A stretch of 32,000 nucleotides of DNA from Candidatus Saccharimonadota bacterium (GCA_003516025.1 CP023991.1:240001-272000); one strand, 5' to 3'; shown: positions 4,923 through 28,800, numbered from the stretch's first letter. Made by a program: numbers and translations. The notes: generated by a model from the sequence alone, not told the origin.

Positions 4923-4934
4923 GCAAAGCAGTAT

Positions 4935-4951
4935 ACAGGTCAAATCGTTAC
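4935..4951. repeat. Cassette 1 distal arm (ACAGGTCAAATCGTTAC), followed by a G7 tract at 4963-4969
   Basis: 15/17 complementary to 7252-7268. The surrounding ~45 nt are homologous (as reverse complement) to 25076-25113 of cassette 2. Confidence 0.75.
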
Positions 4952-5168
4952 AAATCATAAATGGGGGGGTAGGTAGGCAGCGGACGAGAAAGGGAGAATA
5001 AGGAGGAGTTAGGTAATTCAAAGATGAATTAAATCTCGCATACCTATGGTATCTCTATAAACCTATCTGGTCCGCTGCGCTGTACTAACTGTACGAATAC
5101 TTACGACTGCACCGGCAGACATTGATTACGTGTAAGTAATCGCCTGGGATGCTAGCTACTGCTACTAC

Positions 5169-5191
5169 TGTCAAGGACAATTGTCCTGACA
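5169..5191. repeat. 23-nt near-perfect palindrome TGTCAAGGACAATTGTCCTGACA
   Basis: The core AGGACAATTGTCCT is a perfect 14-nt palindrome and the flanks extend it with one mismatch. It is operator-like, with unknown function. Confidence 0.5.
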
Positions 5192-5195
5192 TGCG

Positions 5196-5308
5196 CTTCA
5201 TCGGGATACCCCGAGCATTTGAGCAAACCTTGTCCACCATGCCGCTTTGTAGGCGACTGGGTATGGTGGGAGCGGCGAGCTCTCTTGCATCGGGGTATCC
5301 CGATGAAG
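5196..5308. repeat. Perfect 19-bp inverted repeat (CTTCATCGGGATACCCCGA at 5196-5214 / TCGGGGTATCCCGATGAAG at 5290-5308) with a 75-nt loop
   Basis: Read directly from the sequence. The loop contains further complementary pairs (CCACCAT/ATGGTGG and GCCGCT/AGCGGC). Confidence 0.8.
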
Positions 5309-5626
5309 AGGCTCCGTCCGCTGGTATGCGGGGTGACGGGTGCGCATGGGTGCCTTGGTAGGGCATCCGTTTACCAACATTATCCGACACGCTCGCACGC
5401 GCTGGTTGTGCCTGTAAGTTTGTGGTACAAGCCTACGTCAGATCACCGGAGTGATAACGTTTCTTGTACAGATGCCAGGTTATGGAAGACCGGCGTCTAG
5501 GTTCAGGCACATACGCGCGCAGCTGCATCGGACGATGCTAGCGGTGCTTCAGTCTGTCGACCTCAGTCAAACGGCGAATTGTAGCTGCCGAGTGATTGCC
5601 GTGAAGGCGAGAGGTTGAACAGAACT

Positions 5627-6949
5627 TCAGCAGAGGGTGATGCCGTGGTCCGCCATGTACGCCTCGGGGTCGATGTGACCACCGAAGAACGACGTACCGA
5701 CGCCAAAGTGCAGGTGCGGGCCCGTCGACTGACCACGGTTGCCCGTGTAGGCGATGAGGTCACCGGCGTTGACGTAGGTGTCGAGACCCACGTTGACGCT
5801 GTCCACGTGGCCGTACTCGGTGTACATGCCGTCGTCACCCAGGATGACCACCGCGAGGCCGAAGCCGTTGGTAGCACCTGCGCGCTTGACGTATCCGCTG
5901 GTGGCGGCGTACACCGGGTTGCCGATGGGCAGAGCCATGTCCACGCCACCGTGCTGCGTTCCCCAGCGGGGACCGAAGCCAGACGTGCAGCGGTAGCTGC
6001 TGTCGTGGAGTGGGTTCACCCAGCCGTTGTTGACCACCGGAGCGGTGCTGGCAGCGACCTCGAGGGCCGGAGCAGCGGCGGGAGTCTCCGCGGGCGTGGG
6101 CTCGGGAGCCGGCGCGGGCGGTGCGACCTGCACGGAAGTTCCGGGCAGCTTGATCACGTCGCCGGCGTAGATGACGTCGGGGTCGGTGATCTTGTCGGGG
6201 TTGAGGTTGACGATGTCAGCCACCTTGTTGGTGTCCTGGTAGGCCGCCGAAGCGATCCTGTTCAGGGTGTCACCAGACAAGATGGAGTAGTCGGTCGACT
6301 CGACGTCGGCGACGACCGGTGCGGGAGCCGGGGTGGGCTCAGGCACGGTTGCCTCGACGACGGGCTCGGGAGCCGGGGTGGGCTCAGGAGCGACAGAAGC
6401 CGCGAGGGCGACATCAGACGGAGCCTCCACCGGGACGGTGGTGACGCCAGGCTGGATGCCACCGCGGCACTGCCAGGCCTTGAGGCCCTGACCCTTGACT
6501 CCATTCCAGCCGGACACGACGCGCTCGGCGACGATGACCTGCTGGACAGGCGTGGCCTTGTCGGCGCGGGGAGCGAACTCGCCGCCTCCGTACATGAGCC
6601 AGGTGCTGGTGAGGAACTGCAGGCCACCGAAGTGGAGACCGGCCGGGTCGGCGACGTGCCAACGGAAGTCGGACTCGCAGTCGACAACGCCGGTCCAGTC
6701 GTGCTCACCGACCGTCGTGGTCTCCTCTGCCATAGCAGTGGAGGGGTGTACGAACAGGGCGGCGATGCTGATCAGGCAGGCGAACAGCGTAGCGCGGATG
6801 GCGCTGGTGCGGTTCAGCTGCAGCTCGGGCAGGCGCGGACGGAAATCCACGACGGTCTGGCCGATCAGGACGGTGTTGTGCGCGAAGAAGTACATGACTT
6901 CTCGGCTGGGGTGCTCACTTGCGCGGTGTTGCGATGACATGATTGTCAT
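5627..6949 (-). CDS. Secreted peptidoglycan hydrolase: Rpf-like transglycosylase domain + LysM + M23 (LytM) peptidase; high-GC, actinobacterial type
   Basis: Rpf-type motif DWTGVVDCESDFRWHV...GGLQFLTSTW; Pro/Ala/Glu/Thr linkers; LysM YSILSGDTLNRIASAAY...IYAGDVIKLP; M23 motifs HGGVDMA and GPHLHFGV. The AAGGAG Shine-Dalgarno (complement of 6951-6956) is better spaced for the ATG at 6940, so the start is uncertain. Confidence 0.85.
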   Translation of the reverse strand: MTIMSSQHRASEHPSREVMYFFAHNTVLIGQTVVDFRPRLPELQLNRTSAIRATLFACLISIAALFVHPSTAMAEETTTVGEHDWTGVVDCESDFRWHVADPAGLHFGGLQFLTSTWLMYGGGEFAPRADKATPVQQVIVAERVVSGWNGVKGQGLKAWQCRGGIQPGVTTVPVEAPSDVALAASVAPEPTPAPEPVVEATVPEPTPAPAPVVADVESTDYSILSGDTLNRIASAAYQDTNKVADIVNLNPDKITDPDVIYAGDVIKLPGTSVQVAPPAPAPEPTPAETPAAAPALEVAASTAPVVNNGWVNPLHDSSYRCTSGFGPRWGTQHGGVDMALPIGNPVYAATSGYVKRAGATNGFGLAVVILGDDGMYTEYGHVDSVNVGLDTYVNAGDLIAYTGNRGQSTGPHLHFGVGTSFFGGHIDPEAYMADHGITLC

Positions 6950-7047
6950 GCTCCTTGCGGGTAGGGTACTGATGGGCGTGGATGGTAGAGCGGCTCAAGC
7001 GTAATCACCAATTGTGTCGGTGAAGAGCTGAGGATGTAGCGTAGCCA

Positions 7048-7115
7048 TTCCTGGTAAGGAGGGCATCAGAATAGACTTGCCGGAAATCTACTCAAACGCC
7101 CTCCCTATACAGGAA
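7048..7115 (-). promoter_or_regulatory. Cassette 1 conserved TAGGGAG hairpin upstream of the cargo gene
   Basis: On the minus strand, TTCCTGTATAGGGAGGGC pairs with GCCCTCCTTACCAGGAA. It is positionally and sequence-homologous to hairpin 22262-22327 of cassette 2. Confidence 0.5.
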
Positions 7116-7145
7116 GGGTAAGTATTCATAACCTGCGTCCGGAGG

Positions 7146-7178
7146 CCAAAAAGAGGCCTACAACAGAGTGCAGGCCTT
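7146..7178 (-). terminator. Weak intrinsic terminator ending the cassette 1 leader RNA
   Basis: Minus strand reads GAAGGCCTGCACTCTGTTGTAGGCCTCTTTTTGG: a 6-bp AGGCCT stem, a 12-nt loop and T5. Confidence 0.4.
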
Positions 7179-7251
7179 CAGGTATGCTAAAGGGCTGAAA
7201 AGAGTGATACGAGAAGGTCTGCACTCAGTACCGGTCACAGTATTATGAACA

Positions 7252-7268
7252 GTAATGAATTGACCTGT
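7252..7268. repeat. Cassette 1 proximal arm (minus-strand reading ACAGGTCAATTCATTAC)
   Basis: 15/17 complementary to 4935-4951, 2.3 kb away. Homologous to arm 22043-22059 of cassette 2. Confidence 0.75.
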
Positions 7269-7384
7269 TAATGATCGTTCTGCGTACAATAACCATTGAT
7301 ACACGAGTTCGATGCGGGGAGTAAGTAATATGCTTGCTGGACGCAAAGAGCAGGGAACCTGGCTCCATACACAAATACTATTGT

Positions 7385-7413
7385 ATAGTACTATATTATA
7401 GTTAAATTGTCAA
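7385..7413 (-). promoter_or_regulatory. Sigma70-type promoter of cassette 1 (TTGACA-N17-TACTAT)
   Basis: Minus strand reads CTATTGACAATTTAACTATAATATAGTACTAT, homologous to the cassette 2 promoter TTATTGACATTTTAGCTATTTTGTGGTAGTAT. Confidence 0.55.
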
Positions 7414-9225: not shown

Positions 9226-9621
9226 TCATTCAAATGTATGGCGCACTAATTCCAGCAGCTGCCGCGGCGATAAGTCGGCCTTCACGGCACTACTGTAGGC
9301 GCCGAGACGCAGAGCTTCCGTTAACATGTCTCCCGATGACAGATTGCTGAGGACGATCACTTTAGTGTCGCTGGTATTATGGAATTTTTTCAAAAAACCT
9401 ATGCCGTCAATTTGCGGCATCATAAGATCGAGTAAAATGAGGTCAAAGTGTGACGCCTTTGTTTGGTCAAGCGCCTCCTGGCCGTTCGCGGCGATAGTAA
9501 CCTCATATGGTCCTGTGGACAGGATGATGTGATAGGTCGCGCGTAGCACTTCCTCGTCTTCGACTATAAGTATGGTGTGCATTGGTGTTTTACTTATCTC
9601 CGTATGGTAAACCGCCACCAT
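9226..9621 (-). CDS. Stand-alone response-regulator receiver (CheY-like) protein
   Basis: ILIVEDEE...DLILLDLMMPQIDG...KVIVLSN...K pattern with no output domain. The likely start is the internal MHTILIVEDE (about 9582). Confidence 0.85.
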   Translation of the reverse strand: MVAVYHTEISKTPMHTILIVEDEEVLRATYHIILSTGPYEVTIAANGQEALDQTKASHFDLILLDLMMPQIDGIGFLKKFHNTSDTKVIVLSNLSSGDMLTEALRLGAYSSAVKADLSPRQLLELVRHTFE

Positions 9622-9663
9622 AGTGAAATAATGTGAAAATTCTTACTTGTTAACCATGTGCGG

Positions 9664-10398
9664 CTACAGTTGGGCTTTCGCGAATACCACCAGATTATTG
9701 GAATAGTGCCGTGTCACGTAGTCAAACGTGCCATCACAGGTGATGAGCCGGAGTCCCGGATAATCGAGGTTTCCGTATACTTCCTGTGTTGGAAAATTGT
9801 GCTGGTCATAGCTGGCGGATTTTTCAACAGTGAAGTTGACGGCGCTGCCATCTTGGCGGTTTACCGTTATAGTATCGCCGGTTTTTACGTCTCGCAATGA
9901 CCAAAAAACGGCCTCGCCGTATATACTGCTGTCCAAATGGCCGTCAATGATAGCCGGACCGACTTCACCGGGTGTAGGCGCGCCAGTGTACCAACCGGCC
10001 TTGTCGTGCTCAGGGACTTCCAGGGCGCCATTTTCATCAAGCCCCACACCAACCAGGTTGGCATCTAGGTTGATGGCTGGGATTTGCAACCGTGTTGGCT
10101 CCGAGCGTTGTAGCCCGGCAGGCTTAACGACCGCCGGAGTAACGGGCAGAGGAGGCTGTTGGGTAGTTGAACTGGTTGGTGAATGCCGCGCCTCAACTAA
10201 GGACGCCGTAAGTTGCGCCGAGCCGGCAATAGTGATTATAAAAAGTAAAACCGTCAGGCTGTATGAAACAATTTTCTGAGTGGGCCATGAAGATAGTTCA
10301 CTCTTCAGCTGTTGCAAGGCGAATGCGTGACGCAAAGGAGTAATAAATCGCAGTTTCTCCAGATCATGAGGCTTGAGTATGTCGGTGGTATGGGGCAT
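9664..10398 (-). CDS. Class F sortase
   Basis: N-terminal TM anchor, TRLQIPAINLDANLVGVGLD, AGWYTGAPTPGEVGPAIIDGHLD (catalytic His) and LRLITCDG (catalytic Cys). Confidence 0.8.
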   Translation of the reverse strand: MPHTTDILKPHDLEKLRFITPLRHAFALQQLKSELSSWPTQKIVSYSLTVLLFIITIAGSAQLTASLVEARHSPTSSTTQQPPLPVTPAVVKPAGLQRSEPTRLQIPAINLDANLVGVGLDENGALEVPEHDKAGWYTGAPTPGEVGPAIIDGHLDSSIYGEAVFWSLRDVKTGDTITVNRQDGSAVNFTVEKSASYDQHNFPTQEVYGNLDYPGLRLITCDGTFDYVTRHYSNNLVVFAKAQL

Positions 10399-10463
10399 AT
10401 GGTTTCCTGTAGCTAAGTGGAGCGGCCGCTAGGCAGCCGCTCCAGACAAACACTTGCCGCTGG

Positions 10464-11057
10464 CTAGGCGACTGACTTGAACTGCTTGCGCAAACGGGCG
10501 ATTGCCCAGGCGCCGCTGGCAGTTGTCAACGCTACCAAACTCGCGAGATAGGTCTGGCTGCCGGCACCGGCACCGACGGCGCCGCTTGGTACGGTAACCT
10601 GCGCGACTTCACTGACAGTTGCTTCGCCTCCACCACGGCCGCCGCTTACAGCCGTCGTAGTAGTAGTTGGAGTAGCTGTGCCGCCTCCATCACCGCCACC
10701 GTTGCCACCGCTTGGCTGAGTCGTCGTACAAGCGTTGCTGCCATTATTGGTTATAACGGAATTAAAATTGGTATTACTGGAGTTGTTGGCATTGCCGCTG
10801 CCAACATTGCGGACGTCATCACTATCTTTAACCCCAACATTGCCGGACTGGGCGTCCTGAGGATTGTTATTGACCATGTCAATCCAGTTGTTATTAGAGG
10901 TATAAGCGTTACACTTATTTTCTACGGTGATCACGTTTACTGATTTATCGCCTGAATTGTCGATAAGCGCGTCCGCGTTGGCTACGCCGCCGCTAAACAT
11001 TAAACAGCCAAGGACTGCTGCGGTTGAACCTGTCGCTCTGAGTGCGGAAATTTTCAT
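10464..11057 (-). CDS. Secreted Asn/Gly/Thr-rich protein with a C-terminal hydrophobic segment and basic tail
   Basis: Signal peptide ending ANA-DA, low-complexity NNS/GGG regions, and the C-terminus YLASLVALTTASGAWAIARLRKQFK. No canonical LPXTG motif. Confidence 0.5.
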   Translation of the reverse strand: MKISALRATGSTAAVLGCLMFSGGVANADALIDNSGDKSVNVITVENKCNAYTSNNNWIDMVNNNPQDAQSGNVGVKDSDDVRNVGSGNANNSSNTNFNSVITNNGSNACTTTQPSGGNGGGDGGGTATPTTTTTAVSGGRGGGEATVSEVAQVTVPSGAVGAGAGSQTYLASLVALTTASGAWAIARLRKQFKSVA

Positions 11058-11414
11058 AAGACCCTCCTATGGTTTGTATGTACTCCTATTTCAGTCGCAC
11101 GCGCACGAAGTGTCTGTTAAATATTAGACCGAGCTTCAAACCACCACAGTTAATAACCTAGGCTTTATTGCTGCCGAGGCAGAATAAGCGGTCATAAGAC
11201 AGAGCTTTAATCTTATAGGGGGACGATCCAACTTGTTCAATACCCCAGCCATAGTACAGGGTCGTCCCGGGGGTATCGTTGCAGCGGCTGGCAGGGCTTA
11301 TTTTGCTGACATTATCTGCTCGTTTCAAGACTTTGTATGCGGCTAGCGCGTCAGAGCAGGCTAACTTTTTGGCGTTGAGGTGGCTGAGGGATATTTTTCT
11401 GTATGAGCTCCTGT

Positions 11415-11702
11415 TTAGTTACCGCTTTTGTGTAGGCCGTCTAATCGAAGAGTATTACTTTCGTCGCTATGCGTGCCGCCGCGGCCCACGTGCTTGTCGC
11501 TGATTTGCGAGCCGTTTTTGATAACATGTACGAGCGCCATGGCGTGGCCGCGGCCCAGTCCATATTCATCCTTAAGCCATGATACAATTTCACCTGCTTT
11601 CGTATTAGAGTCAAAACCCTTTTTTGTAGCTAGCTCAATAAACTCATTGGGTGTTTTGCCGGTCTTTTTTTCGATGTTGTCCAAGTATGCTTGGAATGAC
11701 AT
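11415..11702 (-). CDS. DUF4287 domain protein
   Basis: MSFQAYLDNIEKKTGKTPNEFIELA...IVSWLKDEYGLGRGHAMALVHVI matches my memory of the DUF4287 family. Confidence 0.65.
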   Translation of the reverse strand: MSFQAYLDNIEKKTGKTPNEFIELATKKGFDSNTKAGEIVSWLKDEYGLGRGHAMALVHVIKNGSQISDKHVGRGGTHSDESNTLRLDGLHKSGN

Positions 11703-11703
11703 A

Positions 11704-12066
11704 TTAAGCCTCCTTGTCTATTTCACTAATCCTGCATGTAAGTATCTCTTCTATTAACTCATCCGGCAGCGTGTTTTTGAGAGTAAATTTGATAGTGCCT
11801 TTTGAGGTCTGGTACGCGGCAAGCCGTTCGTTAAGCGATGCGGTCGGCCCCGGGGTCGGAAACAAGCTTAAATGATTTTTAAAAGCGGCGTAGTATAGTA
11901 ACGGTTTTTTCTTGTATTTGAAAGTCGGCATCATGTAGCTTACCTCTTCGGTTACTACCGGAACGTACTTTTTCACCAAACTTCTTATTCGTTCAAGCTC
12001 GTTTCTTTCAGGTTCAGGTACATTTTGCAGGTACGCGTCAACAGCTTGCTGGTCTTTGCTTTTCAT
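11704..12066 (-). CDS. DUF1801 (YdhG-like) domain protein
   Basis: 120-aa ORF with a DAYL...P...R..L..IR..V...P...E.ISY.MP.F pattern. A TATAAT box lies 6 nt upstream of the ATG. Confidence 0.65.
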   Translation of the reverse strand: MKSKDQQAVDAYLQNVPEPERNELERIRSLVKKYVPVVTEEVSYMMPTFKYKKKPLLYYAAFKNHLSLFPTPGPTASLNERLAAYQTSKGTIKFTLKNTLPDELIEEILTCRISEIDKEA

Positions 12067-12074
12067 AATGTGAT

Positions 12075-12099
12075 TATAACAAAAGTGACCTCGTTATAA
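12075..12099. repeat. 25-nt repeat TATAACAAAAGTGACCTCGTTATAA (copy of 13713-13737 with 2 mismatches)
   Basis: Direct comparison of the two intergenic regions. On the minus strand it supplies a TGTTATAAT extended -10 directly before the ATG at 12066. Confidence 0.8.
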
Positions 12100-12135
12100 T
12101 GGGGCCTAGATACAGAAGTATATGTAATGACAGTA

Positions 12136-12146
12136 TTGGAGGGCCA
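12136..12146. repeat. TTGGAGGGCCA: copy of the tRNA-Lys 3' end (att-like)
   Basis: The identical 11-mer recurs at 12874-12884. A 10-mer match to 13777-13786 covers the CCA end plus acceptor stem of tRNA-Lys. Confidence 0.7.
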
Positions 12147-12171
12147 CAGTGGAACTTGTCAGGACAAAACT

Positions 12172-12813
12172 TTATTTCACCAATCTTACGTCGGCACCAT
12201 TCATCACCAGTACCTCACCATCGTGAAGTGCCCTATATGGCATATTGTTTTCTTCAAAGTATTGAACGACTTTTTCAATCCCTTCGCTTTCGGGATGCTC
12301 GGAACGATAGTGTGGTGCAATCGAGAACTCTACAAAGCCAAGTCCTTCCCAGATAGTTTCCGTATCATAGCCTTCGGGTATTTGTTCTGGATTATCAACA
12401 AGCTCTATACCTTTTAATGTTTGAGTTGCAACACAACTGCCAGCACTAAAACCGCCATAAACCAGCGTTTCATTGGTGACCAAATCTTTGATGGATCTAT
12501 CAAAGCCACTCATTTTCATGGCTTGGCGTAATGCAAAGGAATTGCCGCCCATTACCCAAACCAGCCCATAGCTTTCAAGTTTGGCTTTTAGTGAGTCGCT
12601 ATCATCAAAATAATCCCGCAAATCTAATTCTTCGGCAGTAAGCCCGATTGTTTTCATTTTTTCTGTTTCGTTTGCTAAATAGGTTGGGCGTTTTTCATTA
12701 CCGTAAATATCTGCTGCATTCATAATAATTCCAACTTTTTTATTGGAGCCAACCAGTTTTGCTAATTCTTCCGGATGATTGCCAAGAAAGTATGACGACA
12801 GATATAACTTCAT
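12172..12813 (-). CDS. Peptidase S51 (dipeptidase E-like) family protein
   Basis: 213-aa ORF with the GGNSFALRQAM and YGGFSAGS nucleophile-elbow pattern of S51 peptidases. Confidence 0.7.
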   Translation of the reverse strand: MKLYLSSYFLGNHPEELAKLVGSNKKVGIIMNAADIYGNEKRPTYLANETEKMKTIGLTAEELDLRDYFDDSDSLKAKLESYGLVWVMGGNSFALRQAMKMSGFDRSIKDLVTNETLVYGGFSAGSCVATQTLKGIELVDNPEQIPEGYDTETIWEGLGFVEFSIAPHYRSEHPESEGIEKVVQYFEENNMPYRALHDGEVLVMNGADVRLVK

Positions 12814-12828
12814 ATGATTACTATACCA

Positions 12829-12859
12829 AATAAAAAGACTCCCCTGACGAGAAGTCTTT
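12829..12859 (-). terminator. Intrinsic terminator after the 12912-13703 gene
   Basis: Minus strand reads AAAGACT-tctcgtcagggg-AGTCTTTTTATTT. Confidence 0.6.
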
Positions 12860-12873
12860 CATAGTGCTTATGC

Positions 12874-12884
12874 TTGGAGGGCCA
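12874..12884. repeat. TTGGAGGGCCA: second internal copy of the tRNA-Lys 3' end
   Basis: Identical to 12136-12146. It lies between two single-gene cassettes. Confidence 0.7.
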
Positions 12885-12911
12885 TTGTCAGCTCTGTAGC
12901 ATCTAATGTAG

Positions 12912-13703
12912 CTAACGGTACAGGCTCGATAAGACCTCACGTAATACTATAATCCTGTCTTCACCAGGTGGCCCTGAATAGCCAGCTTGTGAGCTGACAA
13001 CGAGTACCTGGTTCGGTGATATGCGGTACAAGCCTAGTCGCCAATGTGCTTTTTTTGAGCTACCCGGCAAGTCCTCTCCATCTGGCCCATAAAGGGCAAT
13101 GCGCTCGAGATCTAACTCGTTCGCGATCTTAAACCATTCTTTACCAAAGGCAAATACTTCTTTCAGTTGCATCTCACGAACAGCATCCCAGATATATTTA
13201 CGTATGAGGTCTGCAGGCGGCTGCATCTTACCGTTCACGCCAAATGAATGCCACGGATAAAGTTCGAAATTCAGAATATCATGGATAGAAGCGGTTGGAT
13301 CATTTAGCCATCGCCGAGTGAATCCGATAGCCTTGACCCAGTATTTACTTTTGCCGCCGTGAAACGCATCCCATGACTTGGGATCAGCAGCGGGACTTCG
13401 CTCTAAGCAATAGGTGTAGCCCTGTTTTGCGATTCTTTTCGCCCAAACTCCATTTTTCGATTGTAGATCATCGTAGCCAATACCAGGATTAAGACCAAGT
13501 ATTACAACCCGAGGCTCATGTTGAATGCCACGTATATCACCTACGATCGGATCTGGGTAGTGCCGTAGATCTACTTTACCCACCCCTTTGCCTTGATAGC
13601 TAGCTTGCCAGCGCACAAGGTCAGGATCTGTCATGGGTTTGCCTTCCACCCAGTCCGCTAGGGCCTGGTCCCAAAAGTCTGCAATTCTTGTGCGCGAATC
13701 CAT
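12912..13703 (-). CDS. Hypothetical protein with possible uracil-DNA-glycosylase-superfamily motifs
   Basis: 263-aa ORF. RVVILGLNPG resembles UDG/MUG motif A (GxNPG) and ELYPWHSFG resembles motif B (HPS-type). The functional assignment is weak. Confidence 0.35.
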   Translation of the reverse strand: MDSRTRIADFWDQALADWVEGKPMTDPDLVRWQASYQGKGVGKVDLRHYPDPIVGDIRGIQHEPRVVILGLNPGIGYDDLQSKNGVWAKRIAKQGYTYCLERSPAADPKSWDAFHGGKSKYWVKAIGFTRRWLNDPTASIHDILNFELYPWHSFGVNGKMQPPADLIRKYIWDAVREMQLKEVFAFGKEWFKIANELDLERIALYGPDGEDLPGSSKKAHWRLGLYRISPNQVLVVSSQAGYSGPPGEDRIIVLREVLSSLYR

Positions 13704-13715
13704 AGGGCTTACTAT

Positions 13716-13746
13716 AACAAAAGCGACTTCGTTATAACGAAGTCGC
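13716..13746 (-). terminator. Intrinsic terminator downstream of tRNA-Lys
   Basis: Perfect 9-bp palindrome GCGACTTCG-TTATAA-CGAAGTCGC (13723-13746), followed on the minus strand by TTTTGTT. Confidence 0.6.
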
Positions 13747-13776: not shown

Positions 13777-13853
13777 TGGAGGGCCAGGAGGGACTCGAAC
13801 CCTCGACACCCTGCTTAAGAGGCAGGTGCTCTAACCGGCTGAGCTACTGGCCC
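13777..13853 (-). tRNA. tRNA-Lys (anticodon CUU)
   Basis: Minus strand reads GGGCCAGTAGCTCAGCCGGTTAGAGCACCTGCCTCTTAAGCAGGGTGTCGAGGGTTCGAGTCCCTCCTGGCCCTCCA. It has a cloverleaf, the anticodon loop CTCTTAA, a GTTCGAG T-loop and an encoded CCA. Confidence 0.9.
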
Positions 13854-21903: not shown

Positions 21904-21932
21904 TTGACATTTTAGCTATTTTGTGGTAGTAT
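21904..21932 (+). promoter_or_regulatory. Sigma70-type promoter of cassette 2 (TTGACA-N17-TAGTAT with an upstream TGg)
   Basis: TTGACA at 21904-21909, an exact 17-nt spacer and TAGTAT at 21927-21932. It starts 4 nt after the kinase stop codon. Confidence 0.6.
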
Positions 21933-22042
21933 GTGTACATCCTGATGAGTGGGTAGACAGAGGACGTCAATTATGATGAAAAACTGTTGCTGTCTAAGTG
22001 CTTCGGTACGTTAGGTGGGCCATTTCGACAGGGGTAATTTAA

Positions 22043-22059
22043 CAAGTCGAATCATTACA
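22043..22059. repeat. Cassette 2 proximal arm CAAGTCGAATCATTACA
   Basis: 17/17 complementary to 25097-25113, 3.0 kb downstream. Similarity continues imperfectly for about 10 more nt. Confidence 0.85.
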
Positions 22060-22133
22060 GTGCATTGATACGTACATGTATCAAATAACTGCAAGGGACG
22101 ACAGACGAAACCAGGGCAGGCTTTTATATGCAA

Positions 22134-22160
22134 CACACCGCGGAAGTGGTGTGGTTTTTT
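22134..22160 (+). terminator. Intrinsic terminator (CACACCGC-GGAA-GTGGTGTG + GTTTTTT)
   Basis: 8-bp stem including one G:U pair, a GGAA tetraloop and T6. Confidence 0.65.
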
Positions 22161-22261
22161 GCGTGTAAGAGCCTGCACTGGTTGAGTGTAAGTTTGAGTT
22201 TCGGCTCCTTACTTCCCGTGCAGATAATCTACGCACTACAACCATACTTTGCTTTTACTGT

Positions 22262-22327
22262 CCCATTGTAGGGAGTGGCTTGCTTGAGAAAACATTGTTG
22301 TCTCCAGCCAGTCACTCCCTACAGGGG
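22262..22327 (+). promoter_or_regulatory. Cassette 2 conserved TAGGGAG hairpin upstream of the cargo genes
   Basis: TGTAGGGAGTG (22267-22277) pairs with CACTCCCTACA (22313-22323), flanked by CCC/GGG. Homologous to 7048-7115. Confidence 0.5.
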
Positions 22328-22397
22328 ATTCAGTGATCTATGCTTTGGCAATCCCGCCACTGTATAGCCCAACGTCCCCTTTTTGGAGGGAACACCC

Positions 22398-22970
22398 GTG
22401 CCAACCCCCGAAGCATCTCTGGCTAAGGCTGAGCGACTCGAACGAGAGGCCGCGCAAGCCCGCCAGCGTGCCGCCGACTTGGCTGCTGCCCAAGAGCTCC
22501 GTCACAAGAAGGAGCAGGCGGAAGAGCAGTTCAGGGACGACGAGCACCGTTTCAACGACAAGGTCAACCGTCTCGTCAAGATCAGCTTCCCCCGCGAGGG
22601 CAAGAGGCCTGACCTGGCGAACTACGACAAGGACCGCGTCGGCCAGATCGAGCAAGTCATCGACGAGATCCTGGCACTATGGGAACCCCCGCAGCCTGCC
22701 CCGGCAGCGCAGCCCGATCCCGTGCCAACCCCCGCGCCTGACCCCGCAGCGGTCCTGCAGCCCGATCCCGATCCGGCCGCAGTTCCGCAGCCCGACCCCC
22801 AGGTCGTTCCCGACCCGGACCCCAACGGTCAGCCGACCGCCGCCATCCCGCAGGCCCAGCCCGCTGCTCCGCAGTCCGGTTCTGGTGCCGTACGAAGGCC
22901 CCCGGCCGCTGGCCACGGATTCCGCCGTCTACTCGACAAGGCAGGAAGCGCCTTCACCGGCCAATCCTGA
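22398..22970 (+). CDS. High-GC hypothetical protein: charged coiled-coil N-terminus plus Pro/Asp/Ala/Gln-rich repeats
   Basis: Frame of track ORF 22383-22970. I prefer the GTG at 22398, which has GGAGGG 7 nt upstream. Codons are GC3-rich. No domain recognised. Confidence 0.55.
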   Translation: MPTPEASLAKAERLEREAAQARQRAADLAAAQELRHKKEQAEEQFRDDEHRFNDKVNRLVKISFPREGKRPDLANYDKDRVGQIEQVIDEILALWEPPQPAPAAQPDPVPTPAPDPAAVLQPDPDPAAVPQPDPQVVPDPDPNGQPTAAIPQAQPAAPQSGSGAVRRPPAAGHGFRRLLDKAGSAFTGQS

Positions 22971-23006
22971 TCCTTTCCTCCCCATACTGGAAAGAAGGTC
23001 CTCGCG

Positions 23007-24851
23007 ATGTCTTACTGGCTCGCTTTCGTCATCATCGTGGCCATCACGGCTGCGGTGTGGATGTACGCCAACGCTCGTTCCTACCGACGGACCCACCGGT
23101 TCGTCATGACGCGTAACCGCCTCGGACTCGCCTTGTGCGGCTTCCTGGTGGTCTACCTGCTGACCCAGCTCCTCTGGAGTCCGCTGAGCGGCTTCCGAGT
23201 CGTCAACAACCGCGGCAACCACTGGTTCACCAACCCGTGGAGCCCGTTCTGGCCTTCGGAGTCCTTCATGGGACGTGTGGTCTTCGTGGTGATCGTCGTG
23301 ATCCTGGTCTTCGCGACCGCGGTCATCGCCTTCGCCCTCCGAAGCAACGCCCGTTCCCGCGGCATCGCGCTCTGCGTGATCGTCCTGGTCGTGCTGGTCC
23401 TGGCCCTGATCTTCTCCCCCGCCTTCAAGCGGTGGATGTGGATCGCTCTGGCCATCGGCCTGCTCGCCTGGCTGCTGCCGGTTGGCATCCACTCCAAGTG
23501 GACCGCCAAGTTGCAGGCCGTCGTGGTGCTGCTGGTGGGGCTGTTCCTCCTCGTTCCTGCCATCTGGGCCATCGACTACATGGACGTCACTGCGGTGAGT
23601 CACATGTCAGCGGCCGCTGATGACAACGGGGATGCGGAGAAGCCGTCGTTCACGTGCGCCGACAAGGGTGACCTGTCCCTCGACTGTGAGGTGTCAGACA
23701 CCGGACTCGGCAACGACGTCACCACCCACTGGGAGGTGACCGACAAGGAGGGCAACGAGGTCATCGCGCAGGCCGACCTGGACAAGCTGGAGCACACGCT
23801 CAAGCCCAACCTGAAGGTCGGCACGGCCGGTGACTTCACGGTGACCTTCTGGGCGACCAAGGGTGACGAGCAGACCGACAAGGTCTCGCACGACTACCCC
23901 GTCGCTCAGCCGGCAGCTGCCTGTGCCAACGGCTTCATCGTGAAGCAGCCTGGCCGTGAGGACTACAACCTCAACGACCAGGGTGCGGCGATCCGTGGTG
24001 CAGGCAGTGAGGAGGCGTTCCGTCAGCAGATCATCACCCAAGCGGCCGAAGACCCGCTGACGCTGTACGTCTACTACATCAACTCGCCGGCACAGAAGAC
24101 CGACCCGCTGCCCCTCAAGACGGAGCAGGACACCAACCCGGCCACCATCCTCGTCGAGGGCGGTGACATCAAGGACGGTGCCTGCTACTCCCAGAGGGCC
24201 GTCGACGCCTACAACATGTGGCTCCCGCTGTGGAAGGTCGCCGACCTCACCCACCAGGAGAGTGTCACCCACCAGGGTGCCAACTACGGCATCGAGAATG
24301 GTCAGCTCGTCCAGGATGATGGTGTCAACGTCCCCAACGAAGAGGGTGTCGACATCGCCTACCGTGACGCCAACGGCAACATCGTCGGTGAGCACTCGGC
24401 GCTCTACGTCTGCACCCAGCCGACCACCGGCGAAGCCACTCCCGGCGTCCCGCAGGGTCACACCAACAACCAGGAGGTTGAACAGCACGACGTTCCTACC
24501 GGAGACACCCCTGAGGAGGACACGCCCGACCAGGACACCCCCGACCAGGACACCCCCGAGGAGGACACGCCCGACACCGGCAAGCACGCCAGCCAGGCCC
24601 CGGTCAGTTCCGCCCCCGTCGCAACCGACCCTCGGGTCAACCCCAACGCGGGCGGCAACGGAACGCGGCCTTCGTCGTCTTCTTCGGCTCGTCCGACGCA
24701 GGCGCCGCAGCCCCAGCCCACCATGAGCGAGACACCTTCCGAGGTGCAGCAGCCCGTGCCGGCTGGTCCCGTAGCAACTTCCACGGCTGTCGCCACGGGA
24801 GATCCTGCTGCGGGTGGCGGTGACAGTGATGGGGACGGTATCCCGGACTGA
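23007..24851 (+). CDS. High-GC hypothetical membrane protein (about 6 N-terminal TM helices plus a large extracytoplasmic domain and acidic/Pro-rich tail)
   Basis: 614-aa ORF with GC3-rich codons and GGAAAGAAGG upstream. The TM block spans residues ~1-190, followed by a Cys-containing soluble region, DTPxx repeats and a Pro/Ser/Ala-rich C-terminus. No domain recognised. Confidence 0.7.
   Translation: MSYWLAFVIIVAITAAVWMYANARSYRRTHRFVMTRNRLGLALCGFLVVYLLTQLLWSPLSGFRVVNNRGNHWFTNPWSPFWPSESFMGRVVFVVIVVILVFATAVIAFALRSNARSRGIALCVIVLVVLVLALIFSPAFKRWMWIALAIGLLAWLLPVGIHSKWTAKLQAVVVLLVGLFLLVPAIWAIDYMDVTAVSHMSAAADDNGDAEKPSFTCADKGDLSLDCEVSDTGLGNDVTTHWEVTDKEGNEVIAQADLDKLEHTLKPNLKVGTAGDFTVTFWATKGDEQTDKVSHDYPVAQPAAACANGFIVKQPGREDYNLNDQGAAIRGAGSEEAFRQQIITQAAEDPLTLYVYYINSPAQKTDPLPLKTEQDTNPATILVEGGDIKDGACYSQRAVDAYNMWLPLWKVADLTHQESVTHQGANYGIENGQLVQDDGVNVPNEEGVDIAYRDANGNIVGEHSALYVCTQPTTGEATPGVPQGHTNNQEVEQHDVPTGDTPEEDTPDQDTPDQDTPEEDTPDTGKHASQAPVSSAPVATDPRVNPNAGGNGTRPSSSSSARPTQAPQPQPTMSETPSEVQQPVPAGPVATSTAVATGDPAAGGGDSDGDGIPD
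24504..24578 (+). repeat. Five tandem 15-nt repeats encoding DTP(E/D)(E/Q/T)
   Basis: GACACCCCTGAGGAG GACACGCCCGACCAG GACACCCCCGACCAG GACACCCCCGAGGAG GACACGCCCGACACC. Confidence 0.9.
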
Positions 24852-24867
24852 TCACTGTCTGTGACAC

Positions 24868-24943
24868 CCAGGGTTCCCCGGGACACGCACTTCGCTCACG
24901 CGAGGCGCATGGTAGCTTCGGCTGCTTGTCCCGGGGACCCTGG
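24868..24943 (+). terminator. GC-rich 17-bp hairpin at the end of island 2 (terminator-like, no U tract)
   Basis: CCAGGGTTCCCCGGGACA (24868-24885) pairs with TGTCCCGGGGACCCTGG (24927-24943). G+C drops immediately afterwards. Confidence 0.45.
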
Positions 24944-25096
24944 TTCCACAAATGTAATTGCAAAAAAGTATGACGTGTAGATGCGTTTTGTAGGGTGGTT
25001 GTAAGACTAAAAGTTGAAGTGTTGTTGGCCTTCGCCGACTCCATTCCTTTTATGAAATAACAACCGCCCTGCAATTACCCCCCCATTAATGTGTAT

Positions 25097-25113
25097 TGTA
25101 ATGATTCGACTTG
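25097..25113. repeat. Cassette 2 distal arm TGTAATGATTCGACTTG, preceded by a C7 tract at 25078-25084
   Basis: Perfect complement of 22043-22059. The stretch 25076-25113 is homologous to the reverse complement of 4935-4972. Confidence 0.85.
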
Positions 25114-25166
25114 CCCGGCAGCCGCCTCCGCAAGAGCAGCGTACCTTAAAAATTCGTTAAGTGGCC

Positions 25167-27214: not shown

Positions 27215-27289
27215 CGGTCTCATCGTCTAACGGTTAGGACACCAGGTTTTCATCCTGGCAATCGGAGTTCGATTCTCCGTGAGATCACC
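27215..27289 (+). tRNA. tRNA-Glu (anticodon UUC)
   Basis: GGTCTCATCGTCTAACGGTTAGGACACCAGGTTTTCATCCTGGCAATCGGAGTTCGATTCTCCGTGAGATCACCA. It has a 7-bp acceptor stem, the anticodon loop TTTTCAT, a GTTCGAT T-loop and an encoded CCA. Confidence 0.9.
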
Positions 27290-28800
27290 AAAAGAGACTC
27301 ATCAGCTACAGATGGGTCTTTTTTCATGTTCACCAAAGAGTAAAGGGCGCTTAATTTTGGCGTTCCAAAATTATTTGTGTAGAAGTTGTACTCTATACCT
27401 TCTGGGAATATCATGCGTTGGTAGACTTCGCGCATATCGGGTGTAGCATCGGCCCATATCCGTGGCGCGTTATCCATGTAGCTCAATACGTAGTCAATGG
27501 CCTCTTGATCGGTGCCAATTTGCTGGGATAGTTTTGCAATGCTATCGGTAAGCCCTTCAATCTCCTTATTTGCTTTCAGATGTATGGATATCTTTTCCTG
27601 TTTGCTGATATCGTCGCTGACGAGCTTGTCAGTTGCTTTTTGCTTATGCTCTTCCAGGTCGTTGATCCTGTTCTGGAACTTCTTACGCTGTATGTGTAGC
27701 GTCTTGAGCTCGTCATGCCATACGCGCACGATCATAACCTTAACAAGCCGAAGGGATAGCTTATTTGGTGTTATCTGAGTAAGTAGGCCTATGAACTGTT
27801 CATTGAGCTTAAATGCAGCAATTGAAGCCTTAGAACACTTAGTGCAGTGGTACTTAGGATAGCTTTTACCACTGCCGCCAGTTGAGGCGCTCCCGCGAAC
27901 GGGGCTGCCACAAGTTGCGCAGCTTAGAAATCGGCGCAAAGGGAAATCGGGGTGGTTAACGGAGTAGCTTTCTACCTTACCGTGCTTACGCCGCTCAAGG
28001 ATGCGCTGGTTTCTCCAAAATAAGTCTTGGCTTATTATGCCCTCAAACTGGCTAGTCGGAACGTATTGGTCATTTGTATGCTGATTTCTTTCCAGACCAG
28101 CATATAAAGGGTTGCGCAGCATCTTGCCGAGTAAGCTATGGTTTAGTGATTTACCATTCGGTCGAAATAAGTCTGTTTCGTTTGCTACGGTCAGTAATTC
28201 CTTTATCGTAACGGTGTCGGTTGCGAATTCGGTCAGAAGATATGCTATCTTTTCACCAATGACAGGGTCCGCAGCCAGAATGGATTTTCCGAGTAAGTCG
28301 CGGACATTGATCAGTCCAAAGGGTGCTTTCGCCATGCGATACCCTTCATTGGCATGCCGCTTCATGTTGTCGGTAACTCGCTCCGATTTAATATCGTTGT
28401 CGACCTCGGCCATGACAGCCTTCATATAACGAAGGAGTTTATCTGATTTATTACTTACAATGTTTGAGCTAGGATCCTTGATTTCTATTTTATATTTTTT
28501 TAGCTCTGTACTGATAGCGATAAAGTCATCCATGTTTCTGGCCAAGCGGTCTACCTCGTATATGATCAAATAATGGATGTCTTTACCATGTTCTCTCAGA
28601 TAAGACAGCATATCTTGGAGCTGAGGACGATTAGCTGTCTTGGCGGATACACCTTCTTCACGAAAGGTGCGCTTAATAAGGACGCCATTTCTAAGCGCCC
28701 ATTCCTGACAACGTTCTTCTTGGTTATCAAGGCTGACGCCGTCTACCTGCTGGGTTGTTGAGACGCGTACGTATACAACAGCACGCTTTTTTATATCCAT
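27250..28800 (-). CDS. Large serine recombinase (integrase)
   Basis: 516-aa ORF with the resolvase catalytic domain AVVYVRVSTTQQ...SLDNQ...EVDRLARN, a recombinase domain, a Cys-rich zinc ribbon (CATCGSP...YHCTKC) and a coiled-coil C-terminal region. The last 40 nt overlap tRNA-Glu on the opposite strand. Confidence 0.9.
   Translation of the reverse strand: MDIKKRAVVYVRVSTTQQVDGVSLDNQEERCQEWALRNGVLIKRTFREEGVSAKTANRPQLQDMLSYLREHGKDIHYLIIYEVDRLARNMDDFIAISTELKKYKIEIKDPSSNIVSNKSDKLLRYMKAVMAEVDNDIKSERVTDNMKRHANEGYRMAKAPFGLINVRDLLGKSILAADPVIGEKIAYLLTEFATDTVTIKELLTVANETDLFRPNGKSLNHSLLGKMLRNPLYAGLERNQHTNDQYVPTSQFEGIISQDLFWRNQRILERRKHGKVESYSVNHPDFPLRRFLSCATCGSPVRGSASTGGSGKSYPKYHCTKCSKASIAAFKLNEQFIGLLTQITPNKLSLRLVKVMIVRVWHDELKTLHIQRKKFQNRINDLEEHKQKATDKLVSDDISKQEKISIHLKANKEIEGLTDSIAKLSQQIGTDQEAIDYVLSYMDNAPRIWADATPDMREVYQRMIFPEGIEYNFYTNNFGTPKLSALYSLVNMKKDPSVADESLLVISRRIELRLPG
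27294..27324 (+). terminator. Intrinsic terminator after tRNA-Glu
   Basis: AGACTCATC-agctaca-GATGGGTCT followed by TTTTTT. Confidence 0.65.

What the first reader, a model, noticed from the sequence alone, without database searches (positions are those of the whole stretch)
21904..25113. Cassette 2: the same scaffold with a perfect 17/17 long-range inverted repeat bracketing two high-GC foreign genes
The locus has these parts in order on the plus strand:
- near-consensus promoter (21904-21932), starting 4 nt after the histidine-kinase stop
- a structured RNA of about 220 nt containing the arm CAAGTCGAATCATTACA (22043-22059)
- a strong terminator with a GGAA loop (22134-22160)
- the TAGGGAG hairpin (22262-22327)
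- two GC3-rich genes (22398-22970 and 23007-24851)
- a GC-rich hairpin (24868-24943), where G+C drops abruptly
- about 130 nt of low-GC scaffold and a C7 tract (25078-25084)
- the perfectly complementary arm TGTAATGATTCGACTTG (25097-25113)

Imperfect complementarity extends about 10 nt further.

Because a terminator separates the proximal arm from the cargo, three mechanisms are possible:
1. The short RNA acts on the cargo mRNA 3' end by base pairing.
2. Conditional read-through produces one transcript whose ends form a stalk.
3. The arms are DNA recombination sites.

The promoter lies outside the arms. Inversion of the 3-kb segment would therefore uncouple the cargo from it.
Basis: seen in the sequence. 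Interest (0 to 1): 0.85.

Follow-up and report, generated by a model that had tools for sequence, protein, structure and literature searches.

The report
Long-range RNA clamp around Saccharibacteria genes
The perfect inverted repeat is the core of a long RNA helix that pairs the start and end of one messenger RNA, part of an undescribed two-piece RNA scaffold that many Saccharibacteria place around unusually GC-rich membrane and secreted protein genes.

Summary
The window comes from a Saccharibacteria (TM7) genome.

**The arms pair as RNA, not as DNA sites.**
- The helix is 23-27 bp in 8 complete cassettes from 7 genomes. 9 of 25 pairs show compensatory double changes.
- In 48 distinct arm pairs, G·U outnumbers A·C by 105 to 17.
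- The helix appears in the full-length minimum-energy fold of all 8 cassettes.

**The arms belong to a larger scaffold.** A second nested long-range helix (P3), a leader domain (P2) and a trailer hairpin (P4) complete a two-piece scaffold. With the genes removed, it folds at z = -12.8.

**Other features**
- The "strong terminator" lies inside P2 and is not conserved.
- The promoter sits at a fixed distance in relatives, and no inverted configuration was seen (0 of 38).
- At least 119 metagenome contigs carry the family. Some hold tandem arrays of up to seven small-gene cassettes.

**The cargo is not random foreign DNA.** The 614-aa protein belongs to a family that travels with this scaffold. 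Its extreme GC3 is lineage-dependent and unexplained.

**Best reading.** This is a cis-acting 5'-3' mRNA clamp that controls processing, stability and translation. That function is inferred, not shown. No Rfam family or paper describes it.

The parts
21904..21932 (+). Sigma-70-type promoter of cassette 2 (TTGACA, 17-nt spacer, TG-extended TAGTAT). The inferred transcription start is near 21939-21940.
   Evidence: The homologous promoter lies at a fixed distance from the 5' arm in 28-33 of 38 metagenomic cassettes and in relatives.
21940..22042 (+). Variable 5' domain of the leader, upstream of the clamp helix.
   Evidence: Its length and sequence vary among relatives, from about 40 nt in L007 to more than 300 nt in L020 and L022.
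22043..22065 (+). P1 5' strand.
22111..22181 (+). P2 domain. The closing stem pairs CCAGGGCAGGCU (22111-22122) with AGCCUGCACUGG (22170-22181).
   Evidence: The closing stem is conserved with covariation: 97% paired and 5 of 10 pairs with double changes.
22134..22160 (+). Terminator-like hairpin plus U6, forming the apical part of P2. It is specific to this genome.
   Evidence: The hairpin is absent or different at this position in relatives.
22231..22258 (+). P3 5' strand, the second long-range helix.
   Evidence: Present in the full-length MFE. The homologous helix covaries in 7 other cassettes.
22267..22323 (+). Pre-RBS hairpin ('TAGGGAG hairpin'). The purine-rich 5' strand resembles a Shine-Dalgarno sequence and the 3' strand resembles an anti-SD.
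   Evidence: I1. An equivalent hairpin occurs in every relative, with different sequence. The SD-mimic reading is inference from the sequence.
22324..22397 (+). Conserved 5' UTR with the motif CAGGGGAUUC and the Shine-Dalgarno GGAGGG (22385-22390).
   Evidence: Shared with relatives whose downstream ORFs are not detectably homologous.
22398..22970 (+). ORF1: 190 aa, coiled-coil followed by a proline-rich region. GC3 is 0.73.
   Evidence: No Pfam or PADLOC family matched.
23007..24851 (+). ORF2: 614 aa, with N-terminal transmembrane segments, a conserved domain of about 300 aa and an acidic/proline-rich tail. GC3 is 0.85.
24868..24943 (+). GC-rich hairpin just after the ORF2 stop codon. It has no U-run.
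   Evidence: (I13).
24954..24986 (+). P3 3' strand.
24990..25072 (+). P4 trailer hairpin. The stem pairs GUAGGGUGGUUGU with ACAACCGCCCUGC.
   Evidence: An equivalent hairpin with different sequence occurs in every relative read.
25073..25090 (+). Unpaired C-rich linker that includes the C7 tract (25078-25084).
   Evidence: Relatives carry UUACCCC-type linkers.
25091..25113 (+). P1 3' strand.
4934..7413 (-). Cassette 1, the same scaffold on the minus strand. Its parts are the promoter (7413-7385), P1 5' strand (about 7268-7243), SD-like hairpin (about 7113-7050), cargo ORF (6949-5627; Rpf-like transglycosylase + LysM + M23 peptidase), 19-bp hairpin (5308-5196), C7 tract (4971-4960 region) and P1 3' strand (about 4960-4934).

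Best explanation
Cassette 2 is a single transcription unit whose mRNA is enclosed by a conserved, two-piece RNA scaffold.

**Architecture.** A leader of about 460 nt (21940-22397) and a trailer of about 260 nt (24852-25113) pair with each other through two nested long-range helices.
- P1 is the 17/17 repeat, 23 bp as RNA.
- P3 pairs 22231-22258 with 24954-24986.
- Between them lie a leader domain (P2) and a trailer hairpin (P4).
- The coding region is therefore a giant loop on a four-helix junction.

**Shown.** This is RNA-level, sense-strand, intramolecular pairing. It is conserved with compensatory changes across Saccharibacteria.

**Inferred.**
- The clamp ties the 5' and 3' ends of the mRNA into a duplex of at least 23 bp.
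- That duplex would serve as a double-strand-specific processing site (RNase III type). No terminator follows the 3' arm.
- It would also shield both ends from exonucleases.
- It would hold the leader's SD-mimic/anti-SD hairpin in a defined state. The mRNA would then be long-lived and its translation gated, as in hok-type or hbs-type 5'-3' interactions.
- In this genome a terminator-like hairpin inside P2 probably adds attenuation.

**Cargo.** The enclosed genes encode membrane-anchored or secreted proteins that probably act at the cell surface or on the actinobacterial host.
For: **Arm helix**
- 89.5% of cells are paired, 9 of 25 pairs carry double changes, and 0 of 500 shuffles reach this. 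Slid controls give 26-41%.
- One position is G·U in 6 of 8 cassettes.
- In 48 distinct arm pairs the core helix has 105 G·U and 17 A·C.
- The helix is present in the full-length MFE of all 8 cassettes.

**Other helices**
- P3 appears in all 8 MFEs. It is 91.7% paired, with 9 of 12 pairs doubly changed.
- The P2 stem is 97% paired, with 5 of 10 pairs doubly changed.
- The gene-less scaffold folds at z = -12.8. The leader alone gives z = -1.2.

**Transcription unit**
- The P3 5' strand lies downstream of the terminator. No promoter is predicted between 21932 and 25167 on the + strand.
- No terminator is predicted after the GC hairpin or after the 3' arm.
- The promoter sits at a fixed distance and points inward only from the 5' side.

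**Arrays**
- Tandem arrays in L129 (7 units) and L091 (3 units) have arms matched privately within each unit. In L129 one unit starts about 20 nt after the previous 3' arm with no promoter between.
- In the small-gene members the SD pairs with an upstream CUCCU box in the MFE.
Against: - There are no expression, end-mapping or cleavage data.
- RNase III was not found in the 1.6 Mb of fetched loci, a search that is uninformative either way.
- The arm sequence is more conserved than pairing alone requires. This hints at an unidentified protein or RNA partner.
- G·T pairs are also tolerated in folded single-stranded DNA. The wobble bias therefore proves strand-specific single-strand folding, not RNA as such.
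- The P3 alignment was registered by hand on complementarity, which inflates its score.
- The terminator at 22134-22160 looks efficient. Much transcription may stop there.
Confidence: 0.6

Rival explanations
1. Trans-acting small RNA. Transcription from 21904-21932 stops at 22160, giving an RNA of about 220 nt. Its exposed arm pairs in trans with the 3' UTR of a separately made cargo mRNA.
For: A well-formed terminator-like hairpin with a U6 run lies at 22134-22160. The arm is largely unpaired when the 226-nt piece is folded alone.
Against: - The terminator is not conserved in relatives.
- No promoter is predicted between 22160 and the genes.
- The second helix P3 needs leader sequence downstream of the terminator.
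- In the common subtype the 5' arm starts about 45 nt from the inferred transcription start of the mRNA itself.
Confidence: 0.1
2. DNA-level element. The arms are recombination sites of an invertible segment (a phase switch) or terminal inverted repeats of a cargo-carrying transposon.
For: - The inverted-repeat core is perfect and the arm sequence is strongly conserved across genomes.
- A large serine recombinase gene lies 2.1 kb downstream at 27250-28800.
- Tandem arrays and variable contents recall cassette systems.
Against: - The wobble asymmetry (105 G·U against 17 A·C) is not expected for duplex DNA sites.
- None of 38 cassettes is in the inverted configuration.
- The locus keeps the same position after the histidine kinase in six diverged genomes with 50-62% Mur-ligase identity.
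- No target-site duplication is visible at the arm boundaries.
- The interior also contains P2, P3 and P4, which covary as RNA.
Confidence: 0.04
3. The scaffold is a recognition platform for an unknown partner rather than a stability or processing device. Candidates include a dsRNA-binding or sequence-specific protein, a ligand (riboswitch-like P2), or an export or packaging machinery.
For: - Arm and P2 sequences are far more conserved than pairing alone needs, for example GGAAGCAGCGCG...CGCGCUGCUCC in dozens of contigs.
- The C-rich linker is conserved and unpaired.
- The cargo's host-like codon usage is unexplained.
Against: No candidate partner gene is consistently linked in the loci read. 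No Rfam riboswitch or other family matches. The idea is compatible with the best explanation rather than exclusive of it.
Confidence: 0.2

Closest known systems
5'/3'-UTR interaction of Bacillus subtilis hbs mRNA (Braun, Durand and Condon 2017, PMC5737220)
   Same: [quoted passage not shown] That pairing modulates ribonuclease access and couples stability to translation (abstract read).
   Different: - hbs uses a single 14-bp helix on one short mRNA.
- Here there are two nested helices (23-33 bp and 10-20 bp) plus conserved P2 and P4 domains.
- They span 0.4-3 kb.
- They form a family with more than 100 members and tandem arrays.
Type I toxin mRNAs with 5'-3' fold-back locks (hok/sok tac-fbi; Helicobacter aapA1)
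   Same: - A long-range 5'-3' pairing keeps a full-length mRNA stable but translationally inert.
- SD-sequestering and metastable leader hairpins are present (hok and aapA3 metastable structures are mentioned in PMC13000454; the tac-fbi details are my own knowledge).
- Some array members here encode small hydrophobic or C-terminally membrane-anchored proteins.
   Different: - No antisense antitoxin RNA was identified.
- The cargo here reaches 614 aa and two genes.
- The helices are much longer.
- Activation by 3' trimming is untested.
RNase III processing stalks flanking 16S and 23S rRNA, and T7 early mRNAs (textbook knowledge)
   Same: Sequences on either side of a long RNA pair over kilobases into a duplex of at least 20 bp. 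In arrays, successive units are each bracketed, as in a polycistronic precursor cut into units.
   Different: The bracketed RNA here is a protein-coding mRNA with its own promoter. Cleavage is not shown, and RNase III was not identified in the data at hand.
Staphylococcus aureus icaR 3' UTR-5' UTR pairing (own knowledge; Ruiz de los Mozos et al. 2013)
   Same: A C-rich 3' UTR element acts on the 5' UTR/SD region of the same mRNA, with RNase III involved. A conserved C-rich linker is present here (25073-25090).
   Different: In icaR the pairing directly covers the SD. Here the main helices lie far upstream of the SD, and no pairing of the C-tract with the SD was demonstrated.

Membership tests
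Cis 5'-3' UTR long-range interaction in a bacterial mRNA (hbs / icaR / hok type) | Complementary segments lie in the 5' leader and the 3' trailer of the same transcription unit. | tested here: met
   P1 pairs 22043-22065 with 25091-25113. P3 pairs 22231-22258 with 24954-24986. No internal promoter or terminator is predicted other than the P2 hairpin.
Cis 5'-3' UTR long-range interaction in a bacterial mRNA (hbs / icaR / hok type) | The pairing is maintained in evolution by compensatory changes. | tested here: met
   Within-genome paralogues in L129 also show it.
Cis 5'-3' UTR long-range interaction in a bacterial mRNA (hbs / icaR / hok type) | The pairing changes nuclease cleavage, mRNA half-life or translation. 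| not testable with these tools
   This needs RNA end mapping and mutagenesis.
RNase III processing stalk | A duplex of at least about 20 bp forms from the sequences flanking the released RNA. | tested here: met
   The helix is 23 bp in the window and up to about 33 bp with an internal loop in L091 and L129.
RNase III processing stalk | Staggered double-strand cleavage by RNase III. | not testable with these tools
   No rnc signature was found in the 1.6 Mb fetched, which is uninformative.
Invertible DNA segment (inverton / shufflon) | Both orientations occur in nature. | tested here: not met
   None of 38 metagenomic cassettes has the promoter on the 3'-arm side. All 8 genome cassettes have the same orientation.
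Invertible DNA segment (inverton / shufflon) | The repeats behave as duplex DNA sites, with no strand-specific wobble bias. | tested here: not met
   The core helix has 105 G·U against 17 A·C.
Invertible DNA segment (inverton / shufflon) | A dedicated recombinase is linked to the segment. | tested here: inconclusive
   A serine recombinase is present at 27250-28800, next to tRNA-Glu. Linkage in relatives was not examined.
Transposon or MITE with terminal inverted repeats | Variable insertion sites, target-site duplications and near-identical copies. | tested here: not met
   - The position after the histidine kinase is the same in six diverged genomes.
- The two copies in the window are only about 60-70% alike in the scaffold.
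- No duplication is seen at the arm edges.
Integron gene cassette (attC) | A compact imperfect-palindrome attC of 57-141 bp at the cassette end, promoterless cassettes, and an IntI integrase with attI. | tested here: not met
   The arms are 0.4-3 kb apart and each unit has its own promoter. No integrase-type gene is adjacent in the window.
Self-splicing intron carrying an ORF (group I / II), or any Rfam family | A match to the catalytic-core covariance model. | tested here: not met
   Only tRNAs reached the gathering threshold. Nothing credible appeared at E ≤ 10 in either cassette or in relatives.
Recently acquired foreign genes (xenologues from high-GC Actinobacteria) | Composition is atypical for the resident genome. 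| tested here: met
   Cargo GC3 is 0.73-0.85 against 0.52 ± 0.07 for native genes. NNC codons make up 90-95% against about 50% in native genes.
Recently acquired foreign genes (xenologues from high-GC Actinobacteria) | The closest homologues are in the presumed donor lineage. | tested here: inconclusive
   - Met for cassette 1: every hit that carries an organism name is from Actinobacteria, at 28-56% identity.
- Not met for cassette 2 ORF2. Its family sits inside this scaffold in other cassettes, and the only named member is from Ca. Saccharibacteria.
Recently acquired foreign genes (xenologues from high-GC Actinobacteria) | Patchy presence, with an empty site in relatives. | tested here: not met
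   The locus is occupied in all relatives where the region could be read.

The most novel reading that the evidence does not exclude
The scaffold may be a dedicated container that makes these mRNAs exceptionally stable, translationally silent and recognisable. The epibiont could then store them, or even deliver them to its actinobacterial host. Under this reading the host-like codon usage of a Saccharibacteria-specific gene family would reflect translation by host ribosomes rather than foreign ancestry. The codon figures are NNC/NNG 79-95% and A3 = 0.04.
Probability: 0.04. Interest if true: 0.97.

Novelty: new variant of a known kind. Interest (0 to 1): 0.68.

Why it matters
- **Scale.** Long-range 5'-3' pairing is known for a few individual bacterial mRNAs. 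Here it is a modular, conserved architecture. It has two nested helices plus two domains, spans up to 3 kb, and is sometimes arranged in arrays of seven units.
- **Reach.** Every one of the 11 genome loci that carries the scaffold comes from an assembly labelled Saccharibacteria/Saccharimonadales, Patescibacteria or simply 'bacterium'.
- **Biology.** Saccharibacteria are obligate epibionts with tiny genomes whose gene regulation is almost unknown. A scaffold of this kind would be a major post-transcriptional device for the surface and host-directed proteins that define their lifestyle.
- **A sharp puzzle.** The scaffold brackets genes whose codon usage departs from the rest of the genome by about 0.3 in GC3, although the family is native to these cassettes.
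- **Testability.** The structure is directly testable, because genetic tools based on natural transformation now exist for Saccharibacteria (own knowledge).

Tried and rejected
- **Exact-pattern scans.** Scans for the 3' arm plus C-tract and for the 5' arm in viral contigs found nothing. The same was true in GTDB genomes. The pattern was too specific and the window genome is not a species representative.
- **Rfam.** Searches at the gathering threshold and at E ≤ 10 on both cassettes and on relatives returned only tRNAs and chance miRNA-like hits.
- **Word-indexed protein searches.** For ORF2 the search found only the protein itself. A fragment search found nothing. The exhaustive HMMER search was needed to reveal the family.
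- **RNAduplex and simple helix-score matrices.** Cognate versus non-cognate leader/trailer pairs were not discriminating, because intramolecular competition is ignored. I replaced these with full-length MFEs and a registered alignment.
- **T7-like promoter idea.** The TATAGGGAG resemblance to a phage promoter was dropped. The motif is half of a hairpin whose sequence is not conserved in relatives.
- **Pseudoknot partner for the C7 linker.** In the window, GGGGUAAUU just 5' of P1 is complementary to AAUUACCCC. No consistent partner appears in other cassettes, so the idea is not claimed.
- **Cargo families.** Pfam and PADLOC on cargo proteins gave only coiled-coil noise.
- **RNase III.** A signature search in the fetched loci found nothing.

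Full report
**1. Observation**

- A near-consensus promoter (TTGACA, 17-nt spacer, TG-extended TAGTAT) lies at 21904-21932. It starts 4 nt after the histidine-kinase ORF.
- A terminator-like hairpin with a U-run lies at 22134-22160.
- The TAGGGAG hairpin lies at 22267-22323.
- Two ORFs lie at 22398-22970 and 23007-24851.
- G+C is 0.63-0.70 inside the cassette, against about 0.45-0.50 around it.
- A GC-rich hairpin lies at 24872-24940.
- A C7 tract lies at 25078-25084.
- The inverted repeat was reported by the repeat finder as 22 nt at 91% (22043-22064 / 25092-25113), with a perfect 17/17 core.
- A degenerate form of the arm motif is expected 0.00 times in shuffles of the window, yet it hits both cassettes.

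**2. Context**

The window is from a Saccharibacteria genome.
- A Mur-ligase query recovered 47 related loci. Most are from Saccharibacteria or Patescibacteria metagenome-assembled genomes, and the best have 62% identity.
- The proteins of the window occur on an NCBI contig of 1,005,782 bp.
- 'Cassette 1' is the same scaffold on the minus strand at 4934-7413. It has its own promoter (7413-7385), arms, SD-like hairpin, 19-bp 3' hairpin and C7 tract. Its gene encodes an Rpf-like transglycosylase + LysM + M23 peptidase.

**3. The scaffold is conserved and syntenic**

- BLASTN of the scaffold pieces against the related loci found arm and promoter homologues at the position of cassette 2, directly after the histidine kinase. 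Hits came from L007, L017, L018, L019, L020, L021 and L022.
- L055 carries a cassette-1 homologue next to the same BrkB and rhomboid genes.
- This gives eight complete cassettes from seven genomes whose flanking proteins are only 50-70% identical.

**4. The arms pair as RNA**

- In register, the helix is 22-27 bp in every cassette.
- On the 8-sequence alignment, 89.5% of cells are standard pairs. 9 of 25 pairs have changes on both sides, and no shuffle out of 500 reaches this. Sliding the partner by 1-3 columns gives 26-41%.
- One position is G·U in six of eight cassettes and G-C in the other two.
Of these, 44 had both arms.
- Over 48 distinct arm pairs, the core helix has 105 G·U against 17 A·C. 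That asymmetry is expected for a folded sense strand, not for duplex DNA sites.
- The full-length transcripts (1.9-3.3 kb) contain the arm helix in their minimum-energy structure in all eight cases.
- Contig L129 carries seven tandem units within 7.5 kb and L091 carries three. In each unit the two arms match each other rather than those of their neighbours.

**5. The arms are only the outer helix**

- The same full-length folds show a second leader-trailer helix, P3, at equivalent positions in all eight cassettes. In the window it pairs 22231-22258 with 24954-24986.
- P3 sequences differ between genomes but stay complementary. 91.7% of cells are paired against 61% in shuffles, and 9 of 12 pairs are doubly changed. 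I registered the strands by hand, which favours the structure.
- A leader domain, P2, has a conserved closing stem (CAGUGCAG... / ...CUGCACUG). It is 97% paired, with 5 of 10 pairs doubly changed.
- Every trailer has a long hairpin, P4, followed by an unpaired C-rich linker.
- I joined the window's leader (22039-22258) to its trailer (24954-25118) with a tetraloop. This 389-nt RNA has an MFE of -173.5 kcal/mol, against -97.8 ± 5.9 for shuffles (z = -12.8), and the centroid nearly equals the MFE.
- The 226-nt promoter-to-terminator piece alone is unremarkable (z = -1.2). The trailer alone gives z = -5.4.

**6. Terminator, promoter, orientation**

- The terminator-like hairpin is the apical part of P2. 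It is replaced by unrelated hairpins in relatives, so it is not a defining feature.
- The P3 5' strand lies downstream of the terminator, and no other + strand promoter is predicted before 25167. The functional RNA must therefore read through.
- No terminator is predicted after the GC-rich hairpin or after the distal arm.
- Among 38 metagenomic cassettes with both flanks, 28 have a promoter scoring at least 10 of 12 (33 at 9 of 12 or better). In most of them it starts 80-85 nt upstream of the 5' arm, and in a few up to 129 nt. None has a promoter entering from the 3' side. There is therefore no sign of inversion.

**7. The genes inside**

- Composition is extreme. GC3 is 0.73 and 0.85 for cassette 2 and 0.84 for cassette 1, against 0.52 ± 0.07 for 17 native ORFs.
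- NNC codons make up 90-95% and NNG codons 79-95%, against about 50% in native genes. A3 is 0.04.
- Cassette 1's protein has homologues whose named members are all from Actinobacteria, at 28-56% identity. In L055 the homologue has its LysM and Rpf domains in the opposite order.
- Cassette 2's 614-aa protein looked like an orphan in the word-indexed search. An exhaustive HMMER search then found 52 cluster representatives sharing its C-terminal domain of about 300 aa.
- A profile built from those representatives hits the large ORF of 20 other cassettes. The only named member is from Ca. Saccharibacteria.
- Within that family, GC3 runs from 0.34 to 0.88 and rises steeply with the G+C of the flanking genome.
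- Single-linkage BLASTP joins 41 of 84 cargo proteins, among them the large ORFs of L007 and L020.
- The 'cargo' of cassette 2 is therefore a fast-evolving gene family that belongs with the scaffold, not random foreign DNA. Its GC3 excess of 0.25-0.35 in mid-GC lineages is unexplained.
- The domain model is confident (pLDDT 92.9) but has no significant PDB match.
- Pfam and PADLOC give nothing for the cargo proteins.
- Array members encode small basic or membrane-anchored proteins of 83-189 aa.

**8. Mechanism**

*Shown.* The RNA is bipartite and conserved, and its two halves pair in cis around the coding region.

*Inferred.* I think the scaffold acts as a 5'-3' clamp.
- (a) The duplex of at least 23 bp made by the transcript's two ends is the natural substrate of a double-strand-specific RNase. 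This would define the ends, because no terminator follows the 3' arm. In arrays it would cut units apart; in L129 one unit begins about 20 nt after the previous arm with no promoter between.
- (b) Paired ends resist 5' and 3' exonucleases.
- (c) The leader carries SD-like and anti-SD-like hairpins. In the window these are UAGGGAG / CUCCCUA, and in cassette 1 UAGGGAGGGC / GCCCUCCUUA. In the small-gene subtype a CUCCU box pairs with the SD. Translation is therefore probably gated by the fold.
- (d) In the common subtype the segment GUGCAUGUC can pair in two ways. One partner is a nearby GACGCAC in the leader, and the other is GACAUGCAC in the trailer. This is the kind of alternative pairing used by toxin mRNAs to prevent co-transcriptional translation.

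The window's internal terminator would add attenuation.

**9. Comparison with known systems**

- The nearest relatives in mechanism are the 14-bp 5'/3'-UTR interaction of B. subtilis hbs (PMC5737220) and the fold-back locks and metastable hairpins of type I toxin mRNAs (PMC13000454; hok tac-fbi from my own knowledge).
- Also close are icaR and the RNase III stalks of rRNA precursors (own knowledge).
- None of these is a family to which this RNA belongs.
- Searches of Rfam 15 gave no match. Five literature searches found no description.
- The membership tests for inverton, transposon, integron cassette and ORF-bearing intron all fail on at least one defining feature.

**10. Verdict**

- The DNA-recombination and 'foreign cargo in a mobile cassette' readings are not supported.
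- What is there is an undescribed, widespread bipartite mRNA scaffold of Saccharibacteria. I class it as a new variant of a known kind of regulation.
- One real anomaly remains unexplained: the codon usage of the enclosed genes.

Noticed in passing
L129:2084-9590 and L091 (three 5' arms at sense-strand offsets 1467, 2606 and 3893 of the reverse-complemented locus; locus coordinates 11021-13471, minus strand): These are tandem arrays of seven and three arm-bracketed units. Each unit encloses one small gene of 83-278 aa, several with C-terminal or all-hydrophobic membrane segments. The arms are matched privately within each unit. In these low-GC genomes the enclosed genes are not GC-enriched.
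   Followed up: partly
window 27216-27290 and 27250-28800: A large serine recombinase gene (Resolvase + Recombinase + Zn-ribbon domains, minus strand) overlaps the 3' part of tRNA-Glu. This looks like the edge of an integrated element, 2.1 kb downstream of cassette 2.
   Followed up: no
L053 (another region of the same genome): 300-1200, 1500-2700, 3000-11000: More high-GC islands (57-68% G+C) occur in the same genome, among them an operon of seven genes, six without a recorded Pfam family and the last an M23 peptidase. None has the arm scaffold. Two islands end with a similar hairpin, CCGGGTCCGT...GGAGAGC...ACCCGGCA followed by ACCCC (about 11228-11280 on the + strand and 1480-1430 on the - strand).
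   Followed up: partly
Downstream of the 3' arm in many metagenome loci, for example L064, L101, L131, L146: A conserved TTTAACAA(N3)GGCAACAATG box is followed by the hairpin TTGATTTTATCTGCGAGATAAATCAA and a GGAG Shine-Dalgarno sequence. It appears to be the leader of the next gene and is shared by dozens of contigs.
   Followed up: no
L003 (ends 43 nt after the kinase gene), L002 (starts inside the leader), L005 (ends about 400 nt after BrkB): Independent JGI and Logan assemblies of this organism break at the edges of both cassettes. The cause may be the inverted repeats or the composition jump. Short-read MAGs may therefore under-represent these loci.
   Followed up: no
window 5627-6949 (minus strand) versus L055:8221-9696: The two cell-wall hydrolases at the syntenic cassette-1 position have their domains in different order: Rpf-LysM-M23 against LysM-Rpf-M23. 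Their M23 domains are closely similar, but the full-length alignment is only 43% identical. The flanking native proteins are 62-70% identical.
   Followed up: partly
window 12075-12099 and 13713-13737: A 25-nt direct repeat (TATAACAAAAGYGACYTCGTTATAA, 92% identity) brackets the two minus-strand genes at 12172-13703, next to tRNA-Lys (13777-13853).
   Followed up: no
window 23859-24500 (ORF2 residues about 285-498): The conserved extracellular domain of ORF2 gives a confident AlphaFold model (pLDDT 92.9). It has helices followed by a six-stranded sheet and no significant PDB match. The best hits are NTF2-like ketosteroid isomerases at E = 0.07 and TM = 0.15.
   Followed up: partly
L020:5810-6050 and L022:800-1080 (minus strands): Two relatives carry an extra conserved insert of about 250 nt between the transcription start and the 5' arm (GCAGCUGGAUGCYUGGGGCGAUUU...GGAGCGGACUGAGC...). 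It has no Rfam match.
   Followed up: no
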